Shown here in pieces: positions 3,845-56,991 of a stretch of DNA of 64,000 bases (positions are counted from its first letter, which is position 1; each line of letters opens with the position of its first letter). A program made the translations under genes and the position numbers. Below the pieces are notes generated by a model, which had not been told where the DNA came from, ran no database searches, and saw only the letters and a program-made list of their open reading frames with translations. The stretch comes from Methanobacteriota archaeon (GTDB lineage Archaea > Thermoplasmatota > Thermoplasmata > RBG-16-68-12 > JAFNFQ01): NCBI GenBank assembly GCA_017885655.1, contig JAFNFQ010000032.1, positions 1,258 to 65,257 on the forward strand, in the 5' to 3' direction.

Positions 3845-4939
3845 ATGAAATCGATTATCGAAGACACGCTTTCTAGAGATGCTTCTGTCGTGCAGCCGGA
3901 GGACTCGAGGGTCGATCACGAGCTGGAGGACCTCCTCGCGAAGATGAGGACGAACATCAAGATCATCGGGGTCGGCGGTGGCGGGAGCAACACCATCGCG
4001 CGAATCACCGAGGAGGGGATAGTCGGCGCGGAGCTCATAGCCGCGAACACCGACGCACAGCACCTCTTCGCGATCAGGGTCCCGAAGAAGATACTCCTGG
4101 GCCGCAGGACGACTAAGGGCCTGGGTGCGGGCGCCCTTCCCCAGATAGGCGAGGAGGCTGCGAGAGAGGCGGAGGACGAACTCAAGGCGGCACTCCAGGG
4201 GGCCGACATGGTCTTCGTGACGTGCGGCCTCGGCGGGGGGACCGGCACGGGCAGCAGCGGCTACATCTCGAAGATGGCACGAGACCTGGGGGCGCTGACG
4301 ATTGGCGTGGTAACGATGCCCTTCAAGGGAGAAGGCAGGCTCCGCATGGAGAGCGCGGAGTGGGGGCTGGAGCGCCTCAGGAACTCCGCAGACACCGTCG
4401 TCACGATCCCGAACGACAGACTTCTCGATTTGGTGCCGCGCATGCCCCTCAATGCTGCATTCAGGTTCGCGGACGAGGTGCTGATGAGGTCGATCAAAGG
4501 CCTCACCGAGGTCATCACGAAGCCCGGCCTTGTCAACCTCGACTTCAACGACATCAAGACGATCATGAAGGGAGCCGGAGTGGCGATGATAGGCCTGGGC
4601 GAGAGCGAGGCGATGGGGGAGGAGAGGGCGATAGAGGCGATCGACGAGGCGATCAACTCGCCCCTGCTCGAGGTGGACATCAGCCAGGCGAACGGAGTCC
4701 TGGTGAACGTGATCGGCGGGAACGACATGACCGTGACCGAGGCCGAGCGCGTCGCCGAGGTGGTCCAGACGAAGGTGAGCCCGAACGCCAGGATAATCTG
4801 GGGCGCGACCGTCGACCCGACGCTGGAGCACAAGCTGCGCGTGATGCTGGTCGCCACGGGGGTCAAGAGCAAGCAGATCACGGGCCGCAGGGACCTCCCG
4901 CCGACCTCGCAAAGGATGGGCATGGACGTCGTGAGATAG
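3845..4939 (+). CDS. ftsZ: cell division GTPase FtsZ (tubulin/FtsZ family), paralog A
   Basis: KIIGVGGGGSNTI, the glycine-rich tubulin signature [11 protein letters not shown], and FtsZ C-terminal domain motifs. Confidence 0.9.
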   Translation: MKSIIEDTLSRDASVVQPEDSRVDHELEDLLAKMRTNIKIIGVGGGGSNTIARITEEGIVGAELIAANTDAQHLFAIRVPKKILLGRRTTKGLGAGALPQIGEEAAREAEDELKAALQGADMVFVTCGLGGGTGTGSSGYISKMARDLGALTIGVVTMPFKGEGRLRMESAEWGLERLRNSADTVVTIPNDRLLDLVPRMPLNAAFRFADEVLMRSIKGLTEVITKPGLVNLDFNDIKTIMKGAGVAMIGLGESEAMGEERAIEAIDEAINSPLLEVDISQANGVLVNVIGGNDMTVTEAERVAEVVQTKVSPNARIIWGATVDPTLEHKLRVMLVATGVKSKQITGRRDLPPTSQRMGMDVVR

Positions 4940-5084
4940 GAGTCTGGCCGTTCTGGGGACAGCCTCATCAGGCCAGCGCAGCCACCCAGGGCAGCAACCA
5001 TTCCGAAAAGCTTTATAGAGACCCTTGGTTACGTCCACCTAAACCTGACCAGGGTTTGCTCGTGATTCAGATGGAGGCATCTCC

Positions 5085-6191
5085 ATGCAATCTATTATCA
5101 AAGAATCGTTAATCAGGGCCGAGGACAAAACGCAGGCTCTCTCGGAGCCGCTCCAAGTCGGAGGATTCGCGGCGGACGACGCCGAGCTGGAGAAGATACT
5201 CGCCAGTCTCAGGACGAACATCAAGATCGTCGGGGTCGGTGGCGGCGGGACGAACACAATCGACCGCCTCGTGGAGGCGGGGATCGTCGGTGCCGAGCTG
5301 TATGCCTGCAACACGGACGCGCAGCACCTCCTCACGGTCCGTTCCCCCCATAAGATCCTCTTCGGGAGAAGGGTGACGCGGGGACTCGGGGCCGGCGCGC
5401 TGCCGCAGGTCGGCGAGGAGGCGGCGAGGGAATCTGACGAGGAGCTCAAGAAGGCGCTTCAGGGTGCTGACATGGTCTTTGTCACATGCGGGCTGGGCGG
5501 CGGGACGGGCACGGGCGGCGCTCCTGTCGTGGCGCAGATCGCGCACGAGCTGGGCGCCCTGACCATAGCGATTTGCACGCTCCCGTTCAAGGCGGAGGGG
5601 ATTATACGCGCGGAGAACGCCGAGTACGGGCTGGAGAAGCTGCGCAACTTCGCGGACACAGTCATCACCATACCAAACGACAAGCTGCTGGAGCTCGTGC
5701 CGAGGCTGGCGCTCAACGCTGCATTCAAGGTGGCGGACGAGGTCCTCATGAGGGCGATCAAAGGCATCACCGAGGTCATCACGAAGCCCGGCCTGGTCAA
5801 CCTGGACTTCAACGACATAAGGACGATCATGAAGGGCGGGGGAGTCGCGATGATAGGCCTCGGCGAGGGCGAGGACGACAGGCGGGCCGAGGACGCGATA
5901 GAGGCCGCGATCAACTCCCCGCTGATCGACGTGGACATTAGCATCGCAAACGGCGCGCTGGTCAATGTGACCGGCGGCAACGACATGACTGTGACGGAGG
6001 CCGAGAAGTGCGCCGAGATAGTCCAGAGCAGAATCAGCCCCAACGCGAGGATCATCTGGGGAGCCGCGGTGGACCCCGCGCTGCAGCACAGGATGAGGGC
6101 GCTCGTCATCCTCACTGGTGTCAAGAGCAAGCAGATCTACGGCAGGGGCGAGAGGCCGCCTCAGGCCCCCGGGCTCGAGGTCGTGCGGTGA
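5085..6191 (+). CDS. ftsZ: cell division GTPase FtsZ, paralog B (tandem to the first)
   Basis: [13 protein letters not shown] and [15 protein letters not shown]. About 60% identity to the upstream paralog. Confidence 0.9.
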
Positions 6192-6456: not shown

Positions 6457-7536
6457 ATGGGACTACTCGACGACCTGGCAAAGAAACCGCCAACGCCGCC
6501 TTCCGCGGAGAGGCCGGCGGTCGTCGCCCGCGTGTCCATCGACATGAAGGAAGAGAAGATGGACATGACGGCGGGAGTGGGGAGGGAGTTCCCCGTCGTC
6601 GTCATGAACTCGGGCACCGAGGACGACACCGTCAGGATCAAAGTGGACATGATCTACAGCTACGAGACTCCGGACCCGCCCGAGTGGACCGTGAAGCTCG
6701 GGGGCGTGGAGGAGAAGGTCTGGGAGATAGGCACCTACGTCAGGCACCACCAGGAAGTCAAGACCCGCAAGGAGTTCGTGGACAGGCAGGTCAAGGAGTT
6801 CACGGACAAGGGTCAGCCTGTGCCGGAGGACCTGGCGAAGGAGCGCGACTCCCTCGCGGAGAAGTTCAGGGAGGCCGAGGAGGGCCTGTCGAGGTCGTTC
6901 ATCCTGGTCAGCGGCGGGAGGAGGGAGCTGACTCTCCTGGTGACCTGCCCCAAGGGCGCCAGGTACGGGGACAGCCTCAACGTCGTGGTCAACGCGATTT
7001 CGAAGAGCGACCCCGCGGCGAGGGACCACAAGAGCAGCGTGTTCATGGCGCGGCAGAGCGTGCTGGCCGTGAAGACGTCGATAGGGCACGAGAGGGCGGT
7101 GGCGGACTCACTATATTCCAAGGCGAAGGCCAGGGACATCGGCGTGTTCAGCATACTCGCGCCGGCGAACCTGAGGGGCTACCTCTTCATCGAGAGCATG
7201 AACCCCGACAGGCTGGAAGAGGCGGTCAGGGGGATCAGGCGCGCGCACGGCGTCGTCGGGCGGGGGAAGGGCGAGACGAAGGGCGACGAGGGGATCATCG
7301 CCATCAAGGACATGGACATCTACCTCGCGCCGAAGCCTATCGTGAGCGGCATCATGGAGGGGGACATCGTCGAGCTGATCTCCGGGCCGTTCAAGGGCGA
7401 GAAGGCGAGGGTGCTGAGGATAGACGAGGCGAAGGAGGAGATCACCGTCGAGCTGTTCGAGGCGATGGTGCCGATACCTGTGACCGTCAGGGGGGACGCG
7501 GTCAGGGTGCTGCAGAAGGAGCAGGAGCAGAAGTAG
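6457..7536 (+). CDS. spt5: transcription elongation factor Spt5 (NusG; NGN + KOW) with an unusual ~196-aa N-terminal extension. The conserved core starts at ATG 7045
   Basis: NGN domain (VLAVKTSIGHERAVAD...IFSILAPANLRGYLFIESM) and KOW domain (GDIVELISGPFKGEKARVLRIDE). The open frame continues upstream to 6457 with no stop. Confidence 0.8.
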   Translation: MGLLDDLAKKPPTPPSAERPAVVARVSIDMKEEKMDMTAGVGREFPVVVMNSGTEDDTVRIKVDMIYSYETPDPPEWTVKLGGVEEKVWEIGTYVRHHQEVKTRKEFVDRQVKEFTDKGQPVPEDLAKERDSLAEKFREAEEGLSRSFILVSGGRRELTLLVTCPKGARYGDSLNVVVNAISKSDPAARDHKSSVFMARQSVLAVKTSIGHERAVADSLYSKAKARDIGVFSILAPANLRGYLFIESMNPDRLEEAVRGIRRAHGVVGRGKGETKGDEGIIAIKDMDIYLAPKPIVSGIMEGDIVELISGPFKGEKARVLRIDEAKEEITVELFEAMVPIPVTVRGDAVRVLQKEQEQK

Positions 7537-7600
7537 GTCGTGGTCAGCGTTCGGTGCAATTAATCAGATAGGCCATTCCGGTCACTTTCGGACATCTATC

Positions 7601-7624
7601 AGTTATCCTTAGGTAAGGATAACC
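7601..7624. repeat. 24-bp repeat AGTTATCCTTAGGTAAGGATAACC, copy 1. It contains a perfect 20-bp palindrome TTATCCTTAGGTAAGGATAA
   Basis: Identical to the copy at 7889-7912. Self-complementary. Confidence 0.9.
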
Positions 7625-7637
7625 GCTCCATTTCTCC

Positions 7638-7880
7638 ATGCAAATCGGCTGTGGTCTCCGGGTGATGCGCGTGAAGGGCAGACGCTACATCTATGTCTGG
7701 CACTACGAATTGTCAGACGGAGGGAGGAGGCAGGTCTACGAATACATCGGATCCGTGGATGACCCAGAATCGGGACGGAAAGCAGCTGATGCAATGGAGG
7801 AATACGTCCAGAAAGCAATCGACGAAGCACGCCGACGGCTCCAGTCGGATAAGGCCAAGGCCATGGCGGCGGTCAGGTGA
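7638..7880 (+). CDS. hypothetical small protein (80 aa), bracketed by the two palindromic repeats
   Basis: ATG-initiated ORF between spt5 and rpl11. No recognisable family. Contains a beta-rich segment YIYVWHYEL...QVYEYIG and a basic/acidic C-terminal helix. Confidence 0.45.
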   Translation: MQIGCGLRVMRVKGRRYIYVWHYELSDGGRRQVYEYIGSVDDPESGRKAADAMEEYVQKAIDEARRRLQSDKAKAMAAVR

Positions 7881-7888
7881 GGGGGTCG

Positions 7889-7912
7889 AGTTATCCTTAG
7901 GTAAGGATAACC
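7889..7912. repeat. 24-bp repeat AGTTATCCTTAGGTAAGGATAACC, copy 2
   Basis: A perfect copy of 7601-7624, 9 nt downstream of the ORF stop. Confidence 0.9.
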
Positions 7913-8031
7913 TGGCAAACGTGGGCACCTGCCGCTGCGGTCTGTTCTTGCATCCATTCCAATCCTCATACTCGCCAAGTGCAAAGACTTATCAAGCCCA
8001 GCCACATCCGCATATCTCCAAGGTTGAGACA

Positions 8032-8636: not shown

Positions 8637-11600
8637 GTGTCCGGCGTCTTGCTCGCTTCATTAATCGGCTTCGCCAAGAATGTCTCGAGCATGGACGTGC
8701 CGCCAGAGGTCGTCTCCGTCTCGCCGGGAGTCGACGCGACGAACGTCTCTGTCCTCGCGAACATCTCCGTCGTCTTCAACAAGCCGATGAACGCGACGAG
8801 CGAGAAATGGAACATCACCCCATTCGTTCCTCTCAATTCCTCTTGGTGGGACACCTCGACGCTGAACCTGACGCACACAGTCCCGATGACGCCGGCGACG
8901 AGCTACGTGATCTGGGTCACGGCGAACAACACGGCGGGCACCCCGCTGAGGCGCTACTACCACAAGTACACTTGGCGGTTCACCACGGACTGCGGGGGCA
9001 CCTGCGTCGTGCAGACCTCGCCCGCCGACGGCGACAGGAATGTGGATCTCACCGCCGCAATCGTTGTCAAGTTCAGCCTCCCGGCGGATGTAGTCACCAT
9101 CTCGTTCTCGATCGTGCCGCTCGTTCCAGGCCTGACTTATGCATGGGCGCCTGGGAACACCATGGTTACGCTGAACCACCCCTCGCCTCTGGAGCTCTGC
9201 ACGGCGTACACGGTAACCATCGGCGGAGTCGTTCCCGGTTCAGTCCCGAACCCGTGGACTTTCACGACCGCCTGCCCCGGCGCCACCTTCATCGACGTCG
9301 CGGCGAGCAAGGGCTTCACGGGGATCGACGGGAGCTTCTACGCCTGGGGAGACTACAACCGCGACGGGAACGAGGACCTGCTAATCGACGGCAAGAGGCT
9401 GCTCAGGAACAACGGTCCGCCGAACTACGACTTCACCGAGGTGACCGGCGAGGCGGGCATCGGGGGCACATCAATCAACAACGGCGTCTGGGGCGACTAC
9501 AACAACGACGGCTGGCTCGACTTCTACGCCCCCGGCGGCGGTTGGAGCACCAACGCGGGTCCGAAGGCCCCCTGGGACATACTGTGGATGAACAACGGCG
9601 ACGGGACCTTCACCAACGTCACGGCTGCGGCGGGAAACGTCAAGGACATCTATCCCTCCGTTGCGGCGGGCTGGGGGGACTACGACAGAGACGGCTTCAT
9701 AGACCTCTATGTGGCGAACTACGAGAACGCCGCGATGACCTCGGGCTATCCCGACCGGCTCTGGCACAACGACGGCGATGGCACATTCACGGACGTGACG
9801 AGCTCTGCCCGCATCCTCGACTCGGGGCCGGTGAAGCCGGGGCGGGGAGTCGCCTGGGGCGATTACAACAACGACGGCTGGCTCGACGCCTACATCAGCA
9901 ACTACCGCATCACCGCCAACTATCTGTGGAAGAACCTGGGGAACGGCCAGTTCGTCGATGTCGCTCCTAGTCTGAACGCGACCGGCTGGTATCAGACCGA
10001 CAATCTCTGCTACGATTACAATTTGCACGCAACATATGGGCGGCAGTACGCGCACACGATCGGGTCCGCCTGGGCAGACTTCGACAACGACGGCGACCTG
10101 GACAACTTCAACGCGAACCTTGCGCACAAGTCCGTCGGGAACACGTCCATCCCTGGACTGCCGTACGACATGCGCGGCTACATCACTGACGATTCGCGCC
10201 TCTTCAGGAACGACGGCCCGCCGAACTACAACTTCACCGATGTCAGGGAGGCCGCGGGCATCACGCTCAAACCTGTCGGCGGCACGACCGCTGACCTCGT
10301 CGACAGCCCGCTGGCGCCCTGCATCCACAACCCCTACAAGGGGGACGAGCTGTTCAGCAACGTGATGTGGGCCGACTACGACCTCGATGGCTGGCAGGAC
10401 CTGTGGATACCGCAGGTCTACGACATCAGCTACGCGTACTCGTTCCTCTACCACAACAATGGCGACGGCACGTTCTCCGATGTCACCACAGCCGCAAACG
10501 TCCGGGTCTGGGTGGACGGCTATGCCGGCGCATGGGCGGACTACAACAACGACGGGTTCCCGGATCTTATCACGAGGGGGATTTACCCTGAATACAAGGC
10601 CCCCTACACGCGCGCGATCCGGCTGTTCGAGAATCAGGGAAACACGAACTCATGGCTGCAGGTGAAGCTCAACGGCTGCACCAGCAACGCCGCCGCGATA
10701 GGAGCCCGCATACTCGCCACCGCCAACGGCATGACCCAGATGAGGAATGTCGAGGCGGGCTCGGGCAGTCATTCGCAGATGAACTCCCTGGTGCAGGAGT
10801 TCGGGTTCGGCGATTATCACGGGACGGCCGACCTCCTGATTCGCTGGCCCAACAATAACACGCAGGCCATGACCGCCGTGACCCTCACCCAGCTGCTGCG
10901 CGTAAATGAACCCGGCTGCGACGTCCCCGCCAGGGTGCCCTATATATCTGCGGGGGTTTCCGCCGGGACGGGCGCAGACGTGGTCCTCACCTGGGATAAG
11001 GCGATGGGAGACGATCCCTGGGCCATGAACGTTACCGAGTACGCAGTCTACTACGGCCTCTCATACGACCCCAGCGCAACCTCATACAGCTTCCTGGGCA
11101 AGGTTCCCGCGGGGACGACGACCTTCACTCACGTAGGCGGCGGTGTCGGCGACACCAGGACCTACTATTACTCGATACAGACGAACGGCACGGGCGGCAC
11201 GATCCGCAGCACCGCGCAGGCGGTGAAGTTCGCTAAGCAGCTCTCGCCGGGCGAGCAGCTGCTCTCGATTCCGGTGCCGATCTCGAACTACTCTCTGGAG
11301 AGCGTGCTCAGGGGAGTCTCTTTCACCCATGTCCGCATCTATGACGGGACCATGCAGGACCCGTGGTTGTCCTACGCCCGAGGCCGCCAGTTCAACGACT
11401 TCGATTCGTTCGTCCCGTACCAAGCCTTCTGGATTGGCGTCGAGGTTGGACTTCTTCCGGGATATTTCACGGTGGCGGGTCCGATCATCCCGACAACTAC
11501 GATCCATCTGAGGGCCGGCTGGAACTTGGTTGGGTACACATCCACCCTGTCCAGGGATGTCGCGAGCGCGGTTGCGGGACTCGGCGGCAACTTCAGGGCG

Positions 11601-11735
11601 ATGGAGGGCTACGATTCCTTCGCAGCGCCGTACTTCCTCAAACGAATGGGGCCAACAGACTCCATGCTCGGCGGCGAGGGCTACTGGATCTATGTGGGCT
11701 CAGACGCTGACTGGACGCTCTCGTTCGCGCCATGA
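8637..11735 (+). CDS. large secreted protein with FG-GAP/VCBS-like repeats and an ASPIC/UnbV (CRTAC1-like) domain. GTG start
   Basis: Repeated motifs WGDYNNDGWLDFY / WGDYDRDGFIDLY / WADYDLDGWQDLW. A later segment NQGNTNSWLQVKLNGCTSNAAAIGARI is typical of ASPIC/UnbV. Hydrophobic N-terminus. Confidence 0.75.
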   Translation: MSGVLLASLIGFAKNVSSMDVPPEVVSVSPGVDATNVSVLANISVVFNKPMNATSEKWNITPFVPLNSSWWDTSTLNLTHTVPMTPATSYVIWVTANNTAGTPLRRYYHKYTWRFTTDCGGTCVVQTSPADGDRNVDLTAAIVVKFSLPADVVTISFSIVPLVPGLTYAWAPGNTMVTLNHPSPLELCTAYTVTIGGVVPGSVPNPWTFTTACPGATFIDVAASKGFTGIDGSFYAWGDYNRDGNEDLLIDGKRLLRNNGPPNYDFTEVTGEAGIGGTSINNGVWGDYNNDGWLDFYAPGGGWSTNAGPKAPWDILWMNNGDGTFTNVTAAAGNVKDIYPSVAAGWGDYDRDGFIDLYVANYENAAMTSGYPDRLWHNDGDGTFTDVTSSARILDSGPVKPGRGVAWGDYNNDGWLDAYISNYRITANYLWKNLGNGQFVDVAPSLNATGWYQTDNLCYDYNLHATYGRQYAHTIGSAWADFDNDGDLDNFNANLAHKSVGNTSIPGLPYDMRGYITDDSRLFRNDGPPNYNFTDVREAAGITLKPVGGTTADLVDSPLAPCIHNPYKGDELFSNVMWADYDLDGWQDLWIPQVYDISYAYSFLYHNNGDGTFSDVTTAANVRVWVDGYAGAWADYNNDGFPDLITRGIYPEYKAPYTRAIRLFENQGNTNSWLQVKLNGCTSNAAAIGARILATANGMTQMRNVEAGSGSHSQMNSLVQEFGFGDYHGTADLLIRWPNNNTQAMTAVTLTQLLRVNEPGCDVPARVPYISAGVSAGTGADVVLTWDKAMGDDPWAMNVTEYAVYYGLSYDPSATSYSFLGKVPAGTTTFTHVGGGVGDTRTYYYSIQTNGTGGTIRSTAQAVKFAKQLSPGEQLLSIPVPISNYSLESVLRGVSFTHVRIYDGTMQDPWLSYARGRQFNDFDSFVPYQAFWIGVEVGLLPGYFTVAGPIIPTTTIHLRAGWNLVGYTSTLSRDVASAVAGLGGNFRAMEGYDSFAAPYFLKRMGPTDSMLGGEGYWIYVGSDADWTLSFAP

Positions 11736-52229: not shown

Positions 52230-53001
52230 CCGAATGCGCTGCATTACGTGCGAGATGGTCTGGAGGGTGTCCGCGCTCTATTGAATCTTGCTCTGTGCCT
52301 CACTGATCCCTTCTCCCCATACGGTCCTCTGGCGGCGAAGGAGCATTCCGAGGATGCCTTAACTGAACCCCCAGCCGCGATATCGTTTGGGGATTTCCCG
52401 GTCCATGAGCGTTCCCGCCACGCGTTTTCGAATCAATCCGAGCACGGTCCGCGGTCATCCCGGAACGACCCGCGTTGATCGTTTTCTCCCTTACGCGGCA
52501 TGATTCACCATTCGAACGGGACATTTCTAAACGTGAATGGAGATTTTCTCAACCGGAATCGACTCGATCCAGATGTAGAAGGAAGTGTGTCACACCTGAG
52601 AAGTATATATTCGGGGTCGAAACGCACCTCCTCAATCGCGAAACCTCTTATTCCCAACCGAGACTGAACCCGTTCGCATGCAGAAGGACTCCGTTCGCGT
52701 TGAGATGAGCATTTTCCTGATGGAGAAGTGCCCTATTCAGGCTATCGAGTATCTATTCGAGCGTGAATGAGATCGGTTCAGACTGAGAAACACTTCATTC
52801 CATGATCGTGAGAGTTGACTCGATTTGTCATACAGTCGAGGTCGGTGGGGACCGCAGATTCGCGGCAATGCACCAATGCGACGACGGGACCATTCCTGTC
52901 TGAGAACCTGTCCCTGCGGCAGCTCAGTTGGGTCCCCCTTGGTATTTGTTGCATAAGATTCGGGAAGAACGTTCCCAGGCGAATCCTCCTGAGTAATATA
53001 G

Positions 53002-53086
53002 TGCGGCGGCCAGGATTTGAACCTGGGGACCCCTTCGAGACGAGGACCTAAACCTCGCGCCGTTGGCCGAGCTTGGCTACCGCCGC
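53002..53086 (-). tRNA. tRNA-Leu (anticodon UAG), class II with a long variable arm
   Basis: Reverse complement: acceptor GCGGCGG/CCGCCGC, anticodon stem CGAGG/CCTCG with loop TTTAGGT, a 14-nt variable arm and T-arm CCAGG-TTCAAAT-CCTGG. Discriminator A. Confidence 0.75.
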
Positions 53087-55635: not shown

Positions 55636-56991
55636 ATGTCCGCTCCAGCTGCGAAGCCGAAACCGCGCCTCAACCCGGTGAGAGTCAAGGTCAAGGAAGT
55701 CGAGCCGAGCCAGAGGGTGAAGGGCTTCGGCGAGGTCATCATCCCCTATACGCGCGAGGAGGCGATCGCCGAGGCGCAGCGCTGCATACAGTGCGGCAAA
55801 CCCTACTGCAACGAGGCGTGCCCGATCGGCCAGGACGCCCGCGGATACATCAAGCTCATGGCTCAGGGCAACTTCGACGAGGCGGCTGCCAGGATCGTCT
55901 GGGACAACCCCCTGGCCGAGTGCCTCGGCAAGGTGTGCTACCACTTCTGCGAGCAGGCCTGCACGATCGGAAAGAAAGGCGAGCCGATCGCGATCAGGCA
56001 GCTCAAGAGGGCGGCGCTGGAGTTCGGCAAGACGCCCGCACCCTACGATGCCGTGCCTAAGAACGGGAAGAATGTTGCCATAATCGGCGCCGGTCCGTCA
56101 GGCATAATGGCGGCCTGGAGCCTCGGCAAGATGGGCTACGACATCACAGTGTTCGAGGGCACGAAGAATCTCGGCGGGCTCATGACCATGAGCATACCCG
56201 GTTACCGCCTGACGAAGGGCACCTTCCAGAAGGACCTGGAACGCATGAAGAACCTCGGCATCGACTACAGACTCGGGGTCCGGGTCGGCCGCGACAAGAA
56301 CTTCGAGGACCTGTTCAATAACGGGTATGACGCGGTGTTCGTGGCTATAGGGACGATGGAGCCTCAGGGCATCAAGATCCCAGGCACACAGCTTCCCGGA
56401 GTGCTCAGCGCACTCGACATGCTGATTAACATCAACACCGGCCAGAAGGTCACCATGGGGAAGAGAGTGGCGGTGATAGGCGGCGGCGACGTCGCAATGG
56501 ACTCCGTCCGGAGCGCCCTGCGGTTCGGAGCGGAGAAGGTGACCCTGGTCTATCGCAGGAGCCGCGAGGAGATGCCCGCCAGCGACGATGAGATCGCGGA
56601 GACGCAAGCGGAGGGCATCGAGTTCATGTTCCTGACAGCACCGCTGGAGGTCTTGGGGAAGGACAGAGTCGCCGGCCTCAAGTGCCAGAAGATGCAGCTG
56701 GGCGAACCCGACGAGAGCGGCAGGAGGAGGCCCGTCCCGATCCCGGGCTCGGAATTCGTGCTCGACGTTGATACCGTCATCCTCGCGATCGGCCAGCAGC
56801 CCAGCCTCAAAGGCATACCCGACATAGGGATAGTCGTGAACAAGAAGGGAGTCATCGAGGGCGACCCCGAGACGGGCGGCACGAAGCAGCCCGGAGTGTA
56901 CGTTGGTGGCGGCGCTTCGGTCGTCCATGCCATGGCGGCAGGGAGGAAGGCGGCACTATCAATCGATAAGTTCCTGCGCCCCGCAAGCTGA
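55636..56991 (+). CDS. GltD-family NAD(P)H-dependent oxidoreductase (glutamate synthase small-subunit-like / sulfide dehydrogenase SudA-like)
   Basis: N-terminal Cys cluster CIQCGKPYCNEACP...CEQAC, then FAD/NAD Rossmann motifs VAIIGAGPSG and VAVIGGGDVAMD. Confidence 0.8.
   Translation: MSAPAAKPKPRLNPVRVKVKEVEPSQRVKGFGEVIIPYTREEAIAEAQRCIQCGKPYCNEACPIGQDARGYIKLMAQGNFDEAAARIVWDNPLAECLGKVCYHFCEQACTIGKKGEPIAIRQLKRAALEFGKTPAPYDAVPKNGKNVAIIGAGPSGIMAAWSLGKMGYDITVFEGTKNLGGLMTMSIPGYRLTKGTFQKDLERMKNLGIDYRLGVRVGRDKNFEDLFNNGYDAVFVAIGTMEPQGIKIPGTQLPGVLSALDMLININTGQKVTMGKRVAVIGGGDVAMDSVRSALRFGAEKVTLVYRRSREEMPASDDEIAETQAEGIEFMFLTAPLEVLGKDRVAGLKCQKMQLGEPDESGRRRPVPIPGSEFVLDVDTVILAIGQQPSLKGIPDIGIVVNKKGVIEGDPETGGTKQPGVYVGGGASVVHAMAAGRKAALSIDKFLRPAS

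What the first reader, a model, noticed from the sequence alone, without database searches (positions are those of the whole stretch)
7598..7915. 80-aa ORF bracketed by identical 24-bp palindromes, inserted inside the conserved secE-spt5-rpl11 cluster
AGTTATCCTTAGGTAAGGATAACC occurs twice, at 7601-7624 and 7889-7912. It includes the perfect 20-bp palindrome TTATCCTTAGGTAAGGATAA. The two copies lie 14 nt before the start codon and 9 nt after the stop codon of a single small ORF (7638-7880). Because the repeat is self-complementary, the copies act at once as direct and inverted terminal repeats. The module separates spt5 from rpl11, which are normally adjacent in archaea. Two explanations are possible. 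It may be a tiny insertion cassette. Or it may be a palindromic operator pair recognised by a dimeric factor, perhaps the encoded small protein itself, giving autoregulation or attenuation of rpl11 transcription.
Basis: seen in the sequence. Interest (0 to 1): 0.65.

Follow-up and report, generated by a model that had tools for sequence, protein, structure and literature searches.

The report
Small archaeal gene bracketed by own operators
An 80-residue protein of a previously undescribed family in uncultured Thermoplasmata archaea sits between two copies of a 22-bp inverted repeat that it most likely binds itself, so this is probably a self-regulating small gene and not a transposon or a control element for the neighbouring ribosomal gene.

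Summary
The repeat is real. The 24-bp exact repeat lies at 7601-7624 and 7889-7912 and brackets ORF 7638-7880. It is not a perfect 20-bp palindrome: it has 10-bp arms (GTTATCCTTA/TAAGGATAAC) around an asymmetric GG.

The ORF is a real gene (dN/dS 0.1-0.3). It belongs to an unannotated family confined to Thermoplasmata MAGs: about 100 clusters at 50% identity and 335 metagenome loci. It has no Pfam, NCBIfam or PHROG match and no phage or plasmid hit.

Nearly every family member examined has a 22-bp inverted repeat just upstream of its start codon. Four of five clades have a second, co-evolving copy at the stop codon. The arms keep their symmetry through compensatory changes.

Residue 10 (strand β1) predicts base pair 5/18 of the half-site perfectly: Met with T:A in 21/21, Lys with C:G in 27/27, with at least two independent switches. 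Residue 32 tracks base pair 8/15.

In the window's clade the repeat centre is 25.5 nt upstream of an ATG with no Shine-Dalgarno sequence. That is where TATA boxes of leaderless genes sit in this window.

Best reading: a dimeric autoregulator bound to operators at both ends of its gene.

The gene occurs in many genomic contexts and is absent from a close relative's spt5-rpl11 spacer. It was inverted once exactly at the repeats. A recombination role stays open. Control of rpl11 is not supported.

The parts
7584..7594 (+). Conserved upstream box ACTTTCGGACA (family consensus TTTCGG-N-CA-Y-C), 7 nt 5' of repeat copy 1. Role unknown.
   Evidence: Conserved in clades A, B and D in unrelated genomic contexts. 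It stays with the flank, not the ORF, in the L104/L108 inversion. It is still present in the cassette-less spacer of L101. It is not a common motif in the window: 3 matches with up to 1 mismatch against about 4 expected.
7602..7623 (.). Inverted repeat copy 1 (GTTATCCTTA-GG-TAAGGATAAC). Proposed operator overlapping the core promoter. Its centre is 25.5 nt upstream of the A of the ATG.
   Evidence: exact. Present at the same 14-nt (13-14) distance from the ATG in all 43 unique clade A/B upstream regions. Information content is near maximal although synonymous sites are saturated. TATA-like boxes of other genes in this window are centred at -27 to -29 from their ATG.
7624..7637 (+). 14-nt pyrimidine-rich spacer (CGCTCCATTTCTCC) with no Shine-Dalgarno sequence. 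Constant length and variable sequence, with a conserved C at -1.
   Evidence: The inference of a leaderless mRNA rests on archaeal promoter geometry and has no transcription start data.
7638..7880 (+). ORF80, a member of a new Thermoplasmata-only small protein family. Predicted three long antiparallel β-strands (5-12, 15-26, 29-39) followed by one long helix (43-79).
   Evidence: homologues, all 'hypothetical'; dN/dS 0.08-0.27. AlphaFold2 pLDDT 94.6; no family match; residues 10 and 32 covary with half-site base pairs.
7890..7911 (.). Inverted repeat copy 2, identical to copy 1, 9 nt after the stop codon. Proposed second operator (looping, roadblock or insulation). Also the kind of site at which the cassette was inverted in another clade.
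   Evidence: A co-varying second copy at or over the stop codon is found in clades A, C, D and E but not B. No T-run follows it, so it does not look like an intrinsic terminator. Inversion breakpoints at the repeats in L104 versus L108.

Best explanation
ORF80 encodes a small sequence-specific nucleic-acid-binding protein. It most likely binds as a dimer to the two copies of the 22-bp inverted repeat that bracket its own gene.

Each half-site (GTTATCCT, arm positions 1-8) would be read by the β-sheet, with residue 10 on β1 facing base pair 5 and residue 32 on β3 facing base pair 8.

Copy 1 lies over the core promoter of a probably leaderless transcript: its AT-rich centre is 25.5 nt upstream of the ATG. 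Binding there would compete with TBP/TFB and give negative autoregulation.

Copy 2, right after the stop codon, would be a second operator. It could strengthen repression by looping the 288-bp gene, or act as a protein roadblock that insulates the gene from neighbouring transcription.

Shown here: the association of gene and repeat, the spacing, the symmetry, the co-evolution of both copies, and the covariation between amino acids and base pairs.

Inferred, not shown: binding itself, DNA rather than RNA as the target, dimerisation, the transcription start, the sign of regulation, and the role of copy 2.

The location between spt5 and rpl11 is incidental.
For: 1. Real gene under purifying selection: dN/dS 0.08-0.27 with dS saturated at 1.3-2.0 against most relatives.
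2. Association across the family: 101 representative clusters, 136 clusters at 90% identity and 335 metagenome loci. Every examined member of clades A-E has a 22-bp inverted repeat just upstream of the start codon. One distant member (L015) has none.
3. The repeats are almost invariant where synonymous sites are saturated.
4. Arm symmetry is kept by compensatory changes: position 5/18 is T:A, C:G or A:T; 7/16 and 8/15 also vary in step. The central 6 nt vary freely. Mismatches in the arms are not enriched for G-U type pairs: 6 of 21 in upstream copies.
5. The two copies in one locus always carry the same variant.
6. Of 80 alignment columns, residue 10 is the only one that predicts bp 5/18 perfectly. 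Lys goes with C:G in 27/27 and Met with T:A in 21/21 unique loci of clades A and B. Arg goes with C:G in clade C.
7. At least two independent switches are seen on a tree built without that column. L014 has Met/T:A inside the Lys clade and in the orthologous genomic context. L033 and L036 have Lys/C:G at the base of the Met clade.
8. Residue 32: Pro goes with A:T at bp 8/15 in 4/4.
9. The spacer to the ATG has a fixed 14-nt length, variable sequence and no SD. Other genes in the window have TATA-like boxes centred at -27 to -29 from their ATG.
10. The repeat is rare, not a dispersed element: 2 copies in 64 kb and 5 exact loci in 185,579 species genomes.
11. Solo copies lie in intergenic, promoter-proximal DNA of related MAGs, one upstream of an ArsR-family gene.
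Against: - There are no binding data.
- The high-confidence model has no significant structural neighbour. The best Foldseek hits are PC4/Sub1 ssDNA binders at E 0.1-0.2. Profile comparisons with PC4 and with the lambda Int arm-binding domain are negative. A DNA-binding fold is therefore not established.
- The transcription start is unknown.
- The distance from repeat to start codon differs between clades: 3-6 nt in C, 14 nt in A/B, 38-40 nt in D/E. One promoter geometry cannot hold for all.
- In clade C the right arm contains a GAGGT Shine-Dalgarno-like sequence, which fits an RNA-level role.
- Clade B has lost copy 2, so the pair is not essential.
- Covariation of a residue with a base pair would also arise if the protein bound the stem of an RNA or ssDNA hairpin.
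- The sequences are phylogenetically related, so counts of loci overstate the number of independent events.
Confidence: 0.55

Rival explanations
1. The repeats act as RNA hairpins at the 5' and 3' ends of the ORF80 mRNA. They would either stabilise it or be bound by ORF80 itself for translational autoregulation.
For: - Each copy folds into a 9-10 bp hairpin, -9.9 to -14.5 kcal/mol, z -2.9 to -4.1.
- Copy 2 overlaps the stop codon in clades C and E and part of A, so it is certainly transcribed.
- In clade C the right arm of copy 1 carries a GAGGT SD-like sequence 7-9 nt from the ATG, so a hairpin would mask it.
- Compensatory arm changes fit a stem.
Against: - In clades A and B the 14-nt spacer has no SD, and the repeat centre sits at the TATA position of a leaderless gene. 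Copy 1 would then not be in the mRNA (inference).
- Non-Watson-Crick positions in the arms show no preference for G-U on the coding strand: 6 of 21 in upstream copies.
- Stability alone does not require the two hairpins to be identical or to co-vary with the protein.
Confidence: 0.15
2. The unit is a minimal mobile or rearrangeable cassette. The two copies of a self-complementary site would be recombination substrates (deletion, inversion, integration at a solo site) for a host recombinase. ORF80 would be a passenger or an architectural specificity factor.
For: - The cassette lies in at least six unrelated contexts.
- It is absent from the spt5-rpl11 spacer of a relative whose Spt5 is 88% identical.
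- L104/L105 and L108 share both flanking genes but carry the cassette in opposite orientation, with breakpoints at the repeats.
- Solo repeats exist in related MAGs.
- The upstream TTTCGGNCAC box behaves like flank or target DNA.
Against: - One inversion among 102 loci.
- Each context is stably inherited over large divergence of the neighbours: BNR 54-100%, ApbA 81-100%.
- One copy per locus and per window.
- No target-site duplication.
- No invariant catalytic His, Tyr or Ser set in the family.
- No relatives in viral contigs, phages or plasmids.
- Only this one gene family is ever found between the repeats.
- L101 retains no clean solo repeat.
- Clade B has only one copy.
Confidence: 0.12
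3. The repeats are generic cis signals read by general host factors and unrelated to ORF80's own activity: a symmetric bidirectional TATA-type promoter element upstream and a termination or pause element downstream.
For: - TTATC-type TATA-like boxes occur at other promoters in the window, for example upstream of rpl11 (GACTTATCAAG) and of the gene at 55636.
- The repeat centre is AT-rich in clades A and B.
Against: - The element is found only with this gene family. There is no other copy in 64 kb.
- Its sequence changes with the protein clade and with residue 10. General factors would not track this.
- Clade D has a GC-rich centre, GCAGTACTGC.
- No T-run follows copy 2.
Confidence: 0.07
4. The module regulates rpl11 by attenuation or operator control of the ribosomal protein gene downstream.
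For: Copy 2 lies 120 nt upstream of the rpl11 start, on the same strand.
Against: - The same module precedes apbA, a BNR-repeat gene, hisS or eamA, or faces convergent genes.
- The rpl11 promoter-like region (GCAAAGACTTATCAAG...) is conserved and sufficient in L101, which lacks the module.
Confidence: 0.03

Closest known systems
Small autoregulatory repressors with palindromic operators over their own promoter (bacterial and archaeal ribbon-helix-helix proteins such as Arc, MetJ and CopG; controller C-proteins of restriction-modification systems)
   Same: A protein of about 80 residues. A symmetric operator overlaps the promoter region of its own gene. Base reading is apparently by β-strand side chains. 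A helix is available for oligomerisation.
   Different: No sequence or fold relationship was detected. The topology is β-β-β-long helix, not β-α-α. A second identical operator sits at the stop codon, so the sites bracket the whole gene.
Dual-operator looping systems (lac O1/O2, gal OE/OI, deo, lambda OL/OR)
   Same: Two copies of the same operator, a few hundred bp apart, one of them downstream of the promoter. This is a plausible basis for cooperative repression.
   Different: Here the loop would enclose exactly one tiny gene. The copies are identical and co-evolve. The spacing (255-338 bp between clades) keeps no helical phase. Looping is inferred only.
PC4/Sub1-type ssDNA-binding domain
   Same: Curved antiparallel β-sheet followed by a helix, in a dimeric nucleic-acid binder. 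It is the top-ranked solved fold in both Foldseek searches.
   Different: E-values of 0.1-0.2, TM 0.3-0.5, rmsd about 6 Å. Three strands instead of four. hhalign probability 0.2%. PC4 is not sequence-specific.
Three-stranded β-sheet DNA-binding domains (lambda Int and Tn916 Int arm-binding domains, AP2/ERF)
   Same: β-β-β-α order with an aromatic-rich β2. Recognition through the sheet would fit the covariation at residues 10 and 32. The resemblance was recalled from memory.
   Different: hhalign probability 0.3% against lambda Int 1-64. Not returned by Foldseek. The strands here are much longer (8-12 residues) and there is no recombinase domain.
Invertible DNA segments flanked by inverted repeats (Hin, Gin, Fim switches), and hairpin-ended IS200/IS605 elements
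   Same: The segment is bounded by sequences that can pair in inverted orientation. One inversion has its breakpoints at them. A short conserved box lies next to the left end and stays with the flank.
   Different: No recombinase or HUH transposase. The end repeats are identical and fully self-complementary. Single copy. Inversion is seen only between species, once in 102 loci.

Membership tests
Autoregulated transcription factor with palindromic operator (generic kind) | The cis site co-evolves with the protein that is encoded next to it | tested here: met
   The repeat variant tracks the protein clade. Residue 10 predicts bp 5/18 in 48/48 unique clade A/B loci, with at least two independent switches. 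Residue 32 tracks bp 8/15.
Autoregulated transcription factor with palindromic operator (generic kind) | The operator overlaps the core promoter or transcription start of its own gene | tested here: inconclusive
   The centre is at -25.5 from an SD-less ATG in clades A and B, matching the TATA position of leaderless genes in this window. The spacing differs in clades C, D and E, and no start-site data exist.
Autoregulated transcription factor with palindromic operator (generic kind) | A recognised DNA-binding fold and dimerisation | tested here: inconclusive
   Confident model (pLDDT 94.6), but no structural neighbour at E<0.001. Dimer prediction was not possible with the tools.
Integron gene cassette / attC | attC of 55-141 bp with R''/R' core sites (RYYYAAC ... 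GTTRRRY), and different ORFs in the cassettes | tested here: not met
   The site is 22 bp. GTTATCC does not fit GTTRRRY, and the order of the boxes is reversed. Only one protein family is ever found between the sites.
Integron gene cassette / attC | An IntI integrase and attI nearby | not tested
   The window was not scanned systematically for integrases. None lies within the loci inspected around the cassette.
IS200/IS605-type hairpin-ended transposon | Y1 HUH transposase (invariant His-hydrophobic-His and a catalytic Tyr) | tested here: not met
   Invariant residues are G4, G6, Y17, W21 and G38. H22, E24 and Y56 are replaced in many members. No Pfam or PHROG transposase match.
IS200/IS605-type hairpin-ended transposon | Several copies per genome | tested here: not met
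   One gene and two repeats in 64 kb. One family ORF per locus in 102 loci. Five exact repeat loci in 185,579 genomes.
MITE / REP-type dispersed palindromic repeat | High copy number, non-coding, target-site duplication | tested here: not met
   (rare). The unit is coding. No duplication at the borders.
Intrinsic terminator | A hairpin followed by a T-run | tested here: not met
   No T-run follows copy 2. The scan found no terminator-like site at either copy.
PC4/Sub1 fold family | Significant structural or profile similarity to the PC4 C-terminal domain | tested here: not met
   Foldseek E 0.11-0.19, TM 0.32-0.48. hhalign probability 0.2%. The PC4 query sequence was verified against 1pcf.
Site-specific invertible switch | Both orientations within a population, and a dedicated recombinase | not testable with these tools
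   Only a between-species inversion was seen. Read-level data are not available. No recombinase gene lies in the cassette.

The most novel reading that the evidence does not exclude
The repeat-ORF-repeat unit would be a new kind of minimal rearrangeable gene cassette. A sequence-specific 80-residue protein marks two copies of its own self-complementary site, and host recombination at these sites inverts, deletes or re-integrates the gene.

This would account for the many genomic contexts, the inversion with breakpoints at the repeats (L104 versus L108), the solo repeats (L010, L011), the cassette-less spt5-rpl11 spacer of L101, and the flank-associated TTTCGGNCAC box as a preferred target.
Probability: 0.12. 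Interest if true: 0.85.

Novelty: new variant of a known kind. Interest (0 to 1): 0.55.

Why it matters
If the reading is right, this is an uncharacterised, lineage-wide family of very small sequence-specific regulators in uncultured soil and sediment Thermoplasmata. Its fold has no recognisable relative.

The recognition rule can be read directly from natural covariation: residue 10 Met or Lys/Arg goes with T:A or C:G at half-site position 5, and residue 32 goes with position 8. That makes a concrete specificity-swap experiment possible without a cultured host.

The arrangement of identical operators at both ends of a 243-bp gene is unusual. It offers a compact natural example of gene insulation or looping in archaea. 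The same sites also mark the breakpoints of a gene inversion, which links regulatory palindromes to genome rearrangement.

For the scan itself, the result shows that the feature is not a peculiarity of the spt5-rpl11 cluster.

Tried and rejected
- Chance repeat: rejected.
- tRNA-linked integration of the cassette: rejected. The tRNA 3' fragment upstream of the cassette in L001 is the far end of a different small insertion. That insertion holds a 215-aa ORF, lies between the tRNA at 3897-4003 and its duplicated 3' end, and is absent from L022 and L024.
- SSV-type split integrase N-fragment: rejected. The ORF does not overlap the tRNA fragment and is complete in all contexts.
- Known RNA family: none at the site.
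- Pfam, NCBIfam and PHROGs: only sub-threshold noise. PADLOC was not run.
- PDB by sequence: nothing.
- Foldseek on PDB with the full model and with a model truncated to residues 1-56, and on BFVD: nothing below E 0.01.
- hhalign against the PC4 C-terminal domain and lambda Int 1-64: negative.
- Viral contigs, phage and plasmid collections: no relatives.
- Literature search: nothing relevant.
- Helical phasing of the two sites: not conserved (255-338 bp).
- Further inversions: a search by blastn and tblastx of the flanks found only the L104/L105 versus L108 case.
- Tracing the source record of the window through P0001: failed.
- L101 as a clean excision scar: not supported. It has no family-type repeat, only the upstream box and a different 20-bp palindrome.

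Full report
**Observation.**
The 24-mer AGTTATCCTTAGGTAAGGATAACC occurs at 7601-7624 and 7889-7912 and nowhere else in the window. No shuffle produced a match. The 20-mer is not a perfect palindrome, because its central GG is asymmetric. The element is a 22-bp inverted repeat with 10-bp arms, at 7602-7623 and 7890-7911. It ends 14 nt before the ATG of ORF 7638-7880 and starts again 9 nt after the stop. The centres are 288 bp apart. The surrounding genes are ftsZ, secE, a 359-aa Spt5 and rpl11. Named relatives of several proteins are all from Thermoplasmata or 'Methanobacteriota' MAGs from soils and sediments.

**The ORF is a gene of an undescribed family.**
- A word-based search gave only 5 clusters.
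- A profile search of 1.84 billion representatives gave 101 proteins, nearly all 70-125 aa.
- A second profile search gave 136 clusters, named at most 'hypothetical protein'.
- A metagenome scan gave 335 loci.
- dN/dS against relatives is 0.08-0.27, while synonymous sites are saturated.
- There is no match in Pfam, NCBIfam or PHROGs. There is no sequence match in the PDB. There are no relatives in viral contigs, phages or plasmids.
- AlphaFold2 with a 63-sequence alignment gives a confident model (pLDDT 94.6). It has three long antiparallel strands (5-12, 15-26, 29-39) and one long helix (43-79).
- Foldseek finds no significant neighbour. PC4/Sub1 ssDNA-binding domains rank first in both the full and the truncated search, but only at E 0.1-0.2.
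- hhalign against PC4 and against the lambda Int arm-binding domain is negative.
- The invariant residues (G4, G6, Y17, W21, G38) look structural. No His, Tyr or Cys set is invariant. I therefore read the protein as a binding module, not an enzyme.

**The repeat belongs to the gene, not to the spt5-rpl11 cluster.**
Cassettes with the same architecture occur in several contexts:
- between spt5 and rpl11 (window, L004, L021);
- between a tRNA cluster and apbA (L001, L005, L022, L024);
- upstream of a BNR-repeat gene (L007, L029, L032-L043);
- in several other contexts.

Each context is inherited over large divergence of the neighbours.

Five clades can be told apart.

| Clade | Repeat | Distance to start codon | Second copy |
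|---|---|---|---|
| A (window) | GTTATCCTTA..TAAGGATAAC | 14 nt | 6-12 nt after the stop, or over it |
| B | GTTACCCTTAAGTAAGGGTAAC | 14 nt | none |
| C | TATACCTCTACTTAGAGGTATA | 3-6 nt | over the stop codon |
| D | GTTATCGCAGTACTGCGATAAC | about 39 nt | about 35 nt after the stop |
| E | GTTAACCTTGTTTGAGGTTAAC | 38 nt | over the stop codon |

One distant member (L015) has no clear repeat. The two-copy layout is therefore ancestral and was lost in clade B.

**Constraint on the repeat.**
- In 26 unique upstream and 29 unique downstream copies, arm positions 3-6 are always complementary.
- Positions 5/18, 7/16 and 8/15 change by compensatory substitutions.
- The central 6 nt vary.
- Arm mismatches show no excess of G-U type pairs on the coding strand.
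- The repeat has near-maximal information content, while the 14-nt spacer is variable.
- Both copies of a locus carry the same variant.

**Protein-site covariation.**
- Among 48 unique clade A/B pairs, residue 10 on strand β1 is the only one of 80 columns that predicts base pair 5/18 perfectly. Lys goes with C:G in 27/27 and Met with T:A in 21/21. Clade C has Arg with C:G.
- I built a neighbour-joining tree without that column. L014 (Met, T:A) branches with the Lys clade B, and its flanking genes are orthologous to clade B loci. L033 and L036 (Lys, C:G) branch at the base of the Met clade A. At least two coupled switches therefore occurred.
- Residue 32 on β3 is Pro in the four loci with A:T at 8/15, and Gln otherwise.
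- Lys or Arg facing G, and Met facing T, is what direct major-groove readout would give. That last step rests on general knowledge of protein-DNA recognition.

**Where the site sits.**
In clades A and B the spacer is pyrimidine-rich, lacks a Shine-Dalgarno sequence and ends in a conserved C before the ATG. Other genes in this window have TATA-like boxes centred 27-29 nt upstream of their ATG, which is the geometry of leaderless transcripts. The AT-rich centre of copy 1 lies at -25.5. I infer that copy 1 overlaps the core promoter and that binding represses the gene. In clade C the repeat would lie around the start site and contains a GAGGT. In clades D and E it lies about 25 nt further upstream, and GGTG-like sequences precede the start. 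No transcript data were available, so this part is inference.

**Copy 2.**
It is not followed by a T-run, and the terminator scan finds nothing there. In L013 and in most clade C loci the next gene is convergent, so copy 2 cannot be that gene's promoter element. A second operator for looping, or a roadblock and insulator, is my best guess. Centre-to-centre distances of 255-338 bp keep no helical phase.

**Rearrangements.**
- L101, whose Spt5 is 88% identical to the window's, has spt5 and rpl11 separated by 190 bp with no ORF and no family-type repeat. It does keep the box ACTTTCGGCCAC, which precedes copy 1 in all clade A, B and D loci. It also carries a different 20-bp palindrome.
- More distant relatives have other genes after spt5.
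- L104/L105 and L108 share both neighbours (eamA, hisS; 62-73% protein identity) but carry the cassette in opposite orientation. Flank homology ends at the repeats.
- No other inversion was found among 102 loci.
- Solo repeats occur in two related MAGs. One is upstream of an ArsR-family gene. The other is in the MAG that also has a full cassette.
- These facts fit occasional recombination at a self-complementary repeat and keep a mobile-cassette reading alive. Against that reading stand the single-copy state, the stable contexts, the lack of target duplications and the lack of any catalytic signature.

**Verdict.**
The operator-pair and autoregulation idea is the best-supported explanation (about 0.55). 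The RNA-hairpin reading (0.15) and the recombination-cassette reading (0.12) remain possible and are not mutually exclusive with protein binding. Control of rpl11 is not supported. The kind of system, a small autoregulator with a palindromic operator, is known. The protein family, its fold and the gene-bracketing pair of co-evolving operators are new.

Noticed in passing
window 6457-7536: Spt5 is 359 aa. About 200 residues with no Pfam match precede the NGN (203-267) and KOW (301-332) domains. Relatives in this Thermoplasmata lineage are 308-382 aa, about twice the usual archaeal Spt5.
   Followed up: partly
window about 3845-4940 and 5085-6191: Two FtsZ-family genes lie in tandem directly upstream of secE-spt5. 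The arrangement is conserved in L004 and L101-L103.
   Followed up: no
L001 3897-4907: An intron-containing tRNA (3897-4003) has its 3' ~40 nt duplicated at about 4868-4907. The two copies bracket a 215-aa ORF with no Pfam match that is absent from the orthologous loci L022 and L024. This looks like a small element integrated at a tRNA gene, unrelated to the ORF80 cassette just downstream.
   Followed up: partly
window 7584-7594; L101 3601-3612; L104 about 1400-1413: A conserved box TTTCGG-N-CA-Y-C lies 7-10 nt upstream of repeat copy 1 in clades A, B and D. It stays with the flank in the inversion and persists in the cassette-less L101 spacer. A related box lies 17-45 nt after copy 2 in some loci, for example GGAATTCGGCCACGG in L025. 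Its function is unknown.
   Followed up: partly
L101 3639-3658: The cassette-less spt5-rpl11 spacer carries its own 20-bp palindrome, TTGCTTCAA-TC-TTGAAGCAA. It has the same arm+2+arm geometry as the family repeats but a different sequence.
   Followed up: no
L007 430-451 (= L029): A third, degenerate repeat copy (GCTATCCTCACGCGAGGATAAC) lies 41 nt after the second one in the BNR-context loci.
   Followed up: no
L012 7092-7113: An exact match to the repeat pattern (GTTATCCTTATGTAAGGATAAC) occurs in an alphaproteobacterial MAG. By my own rough estimate, not a tool result, about 0.3 such matches are expected by chance in 596 Gb, so it may be coincidence.
   Followed up: no
window 8637-11735: rpl11 is followed by a 1032-aa Big_5 / FG-GAP / ASPIC-UnbV repeat protein, apparently secreted, and not by rpl1-rpl10-rpl12. 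The ribosomal cluster is broken on both sides of rpl11 here.
   Followed up: partly
window 53001-53086 (-): ARAGORN calls a tRNA-Leu (tag) that the Rfam gathering-threshold scan does not report.
   Followed up: no
window 22771 (-), 26669 (-), 55636 (+): Several genes have TATA-like boxes (TTTATT, TTATTAAT, GTTATCTAG) centred 27-29 nt upstream of their ATG and no Shine-Dalgarno sequence. This suggests that leaderless transcripts are common in this organism.
   Followed up: partly
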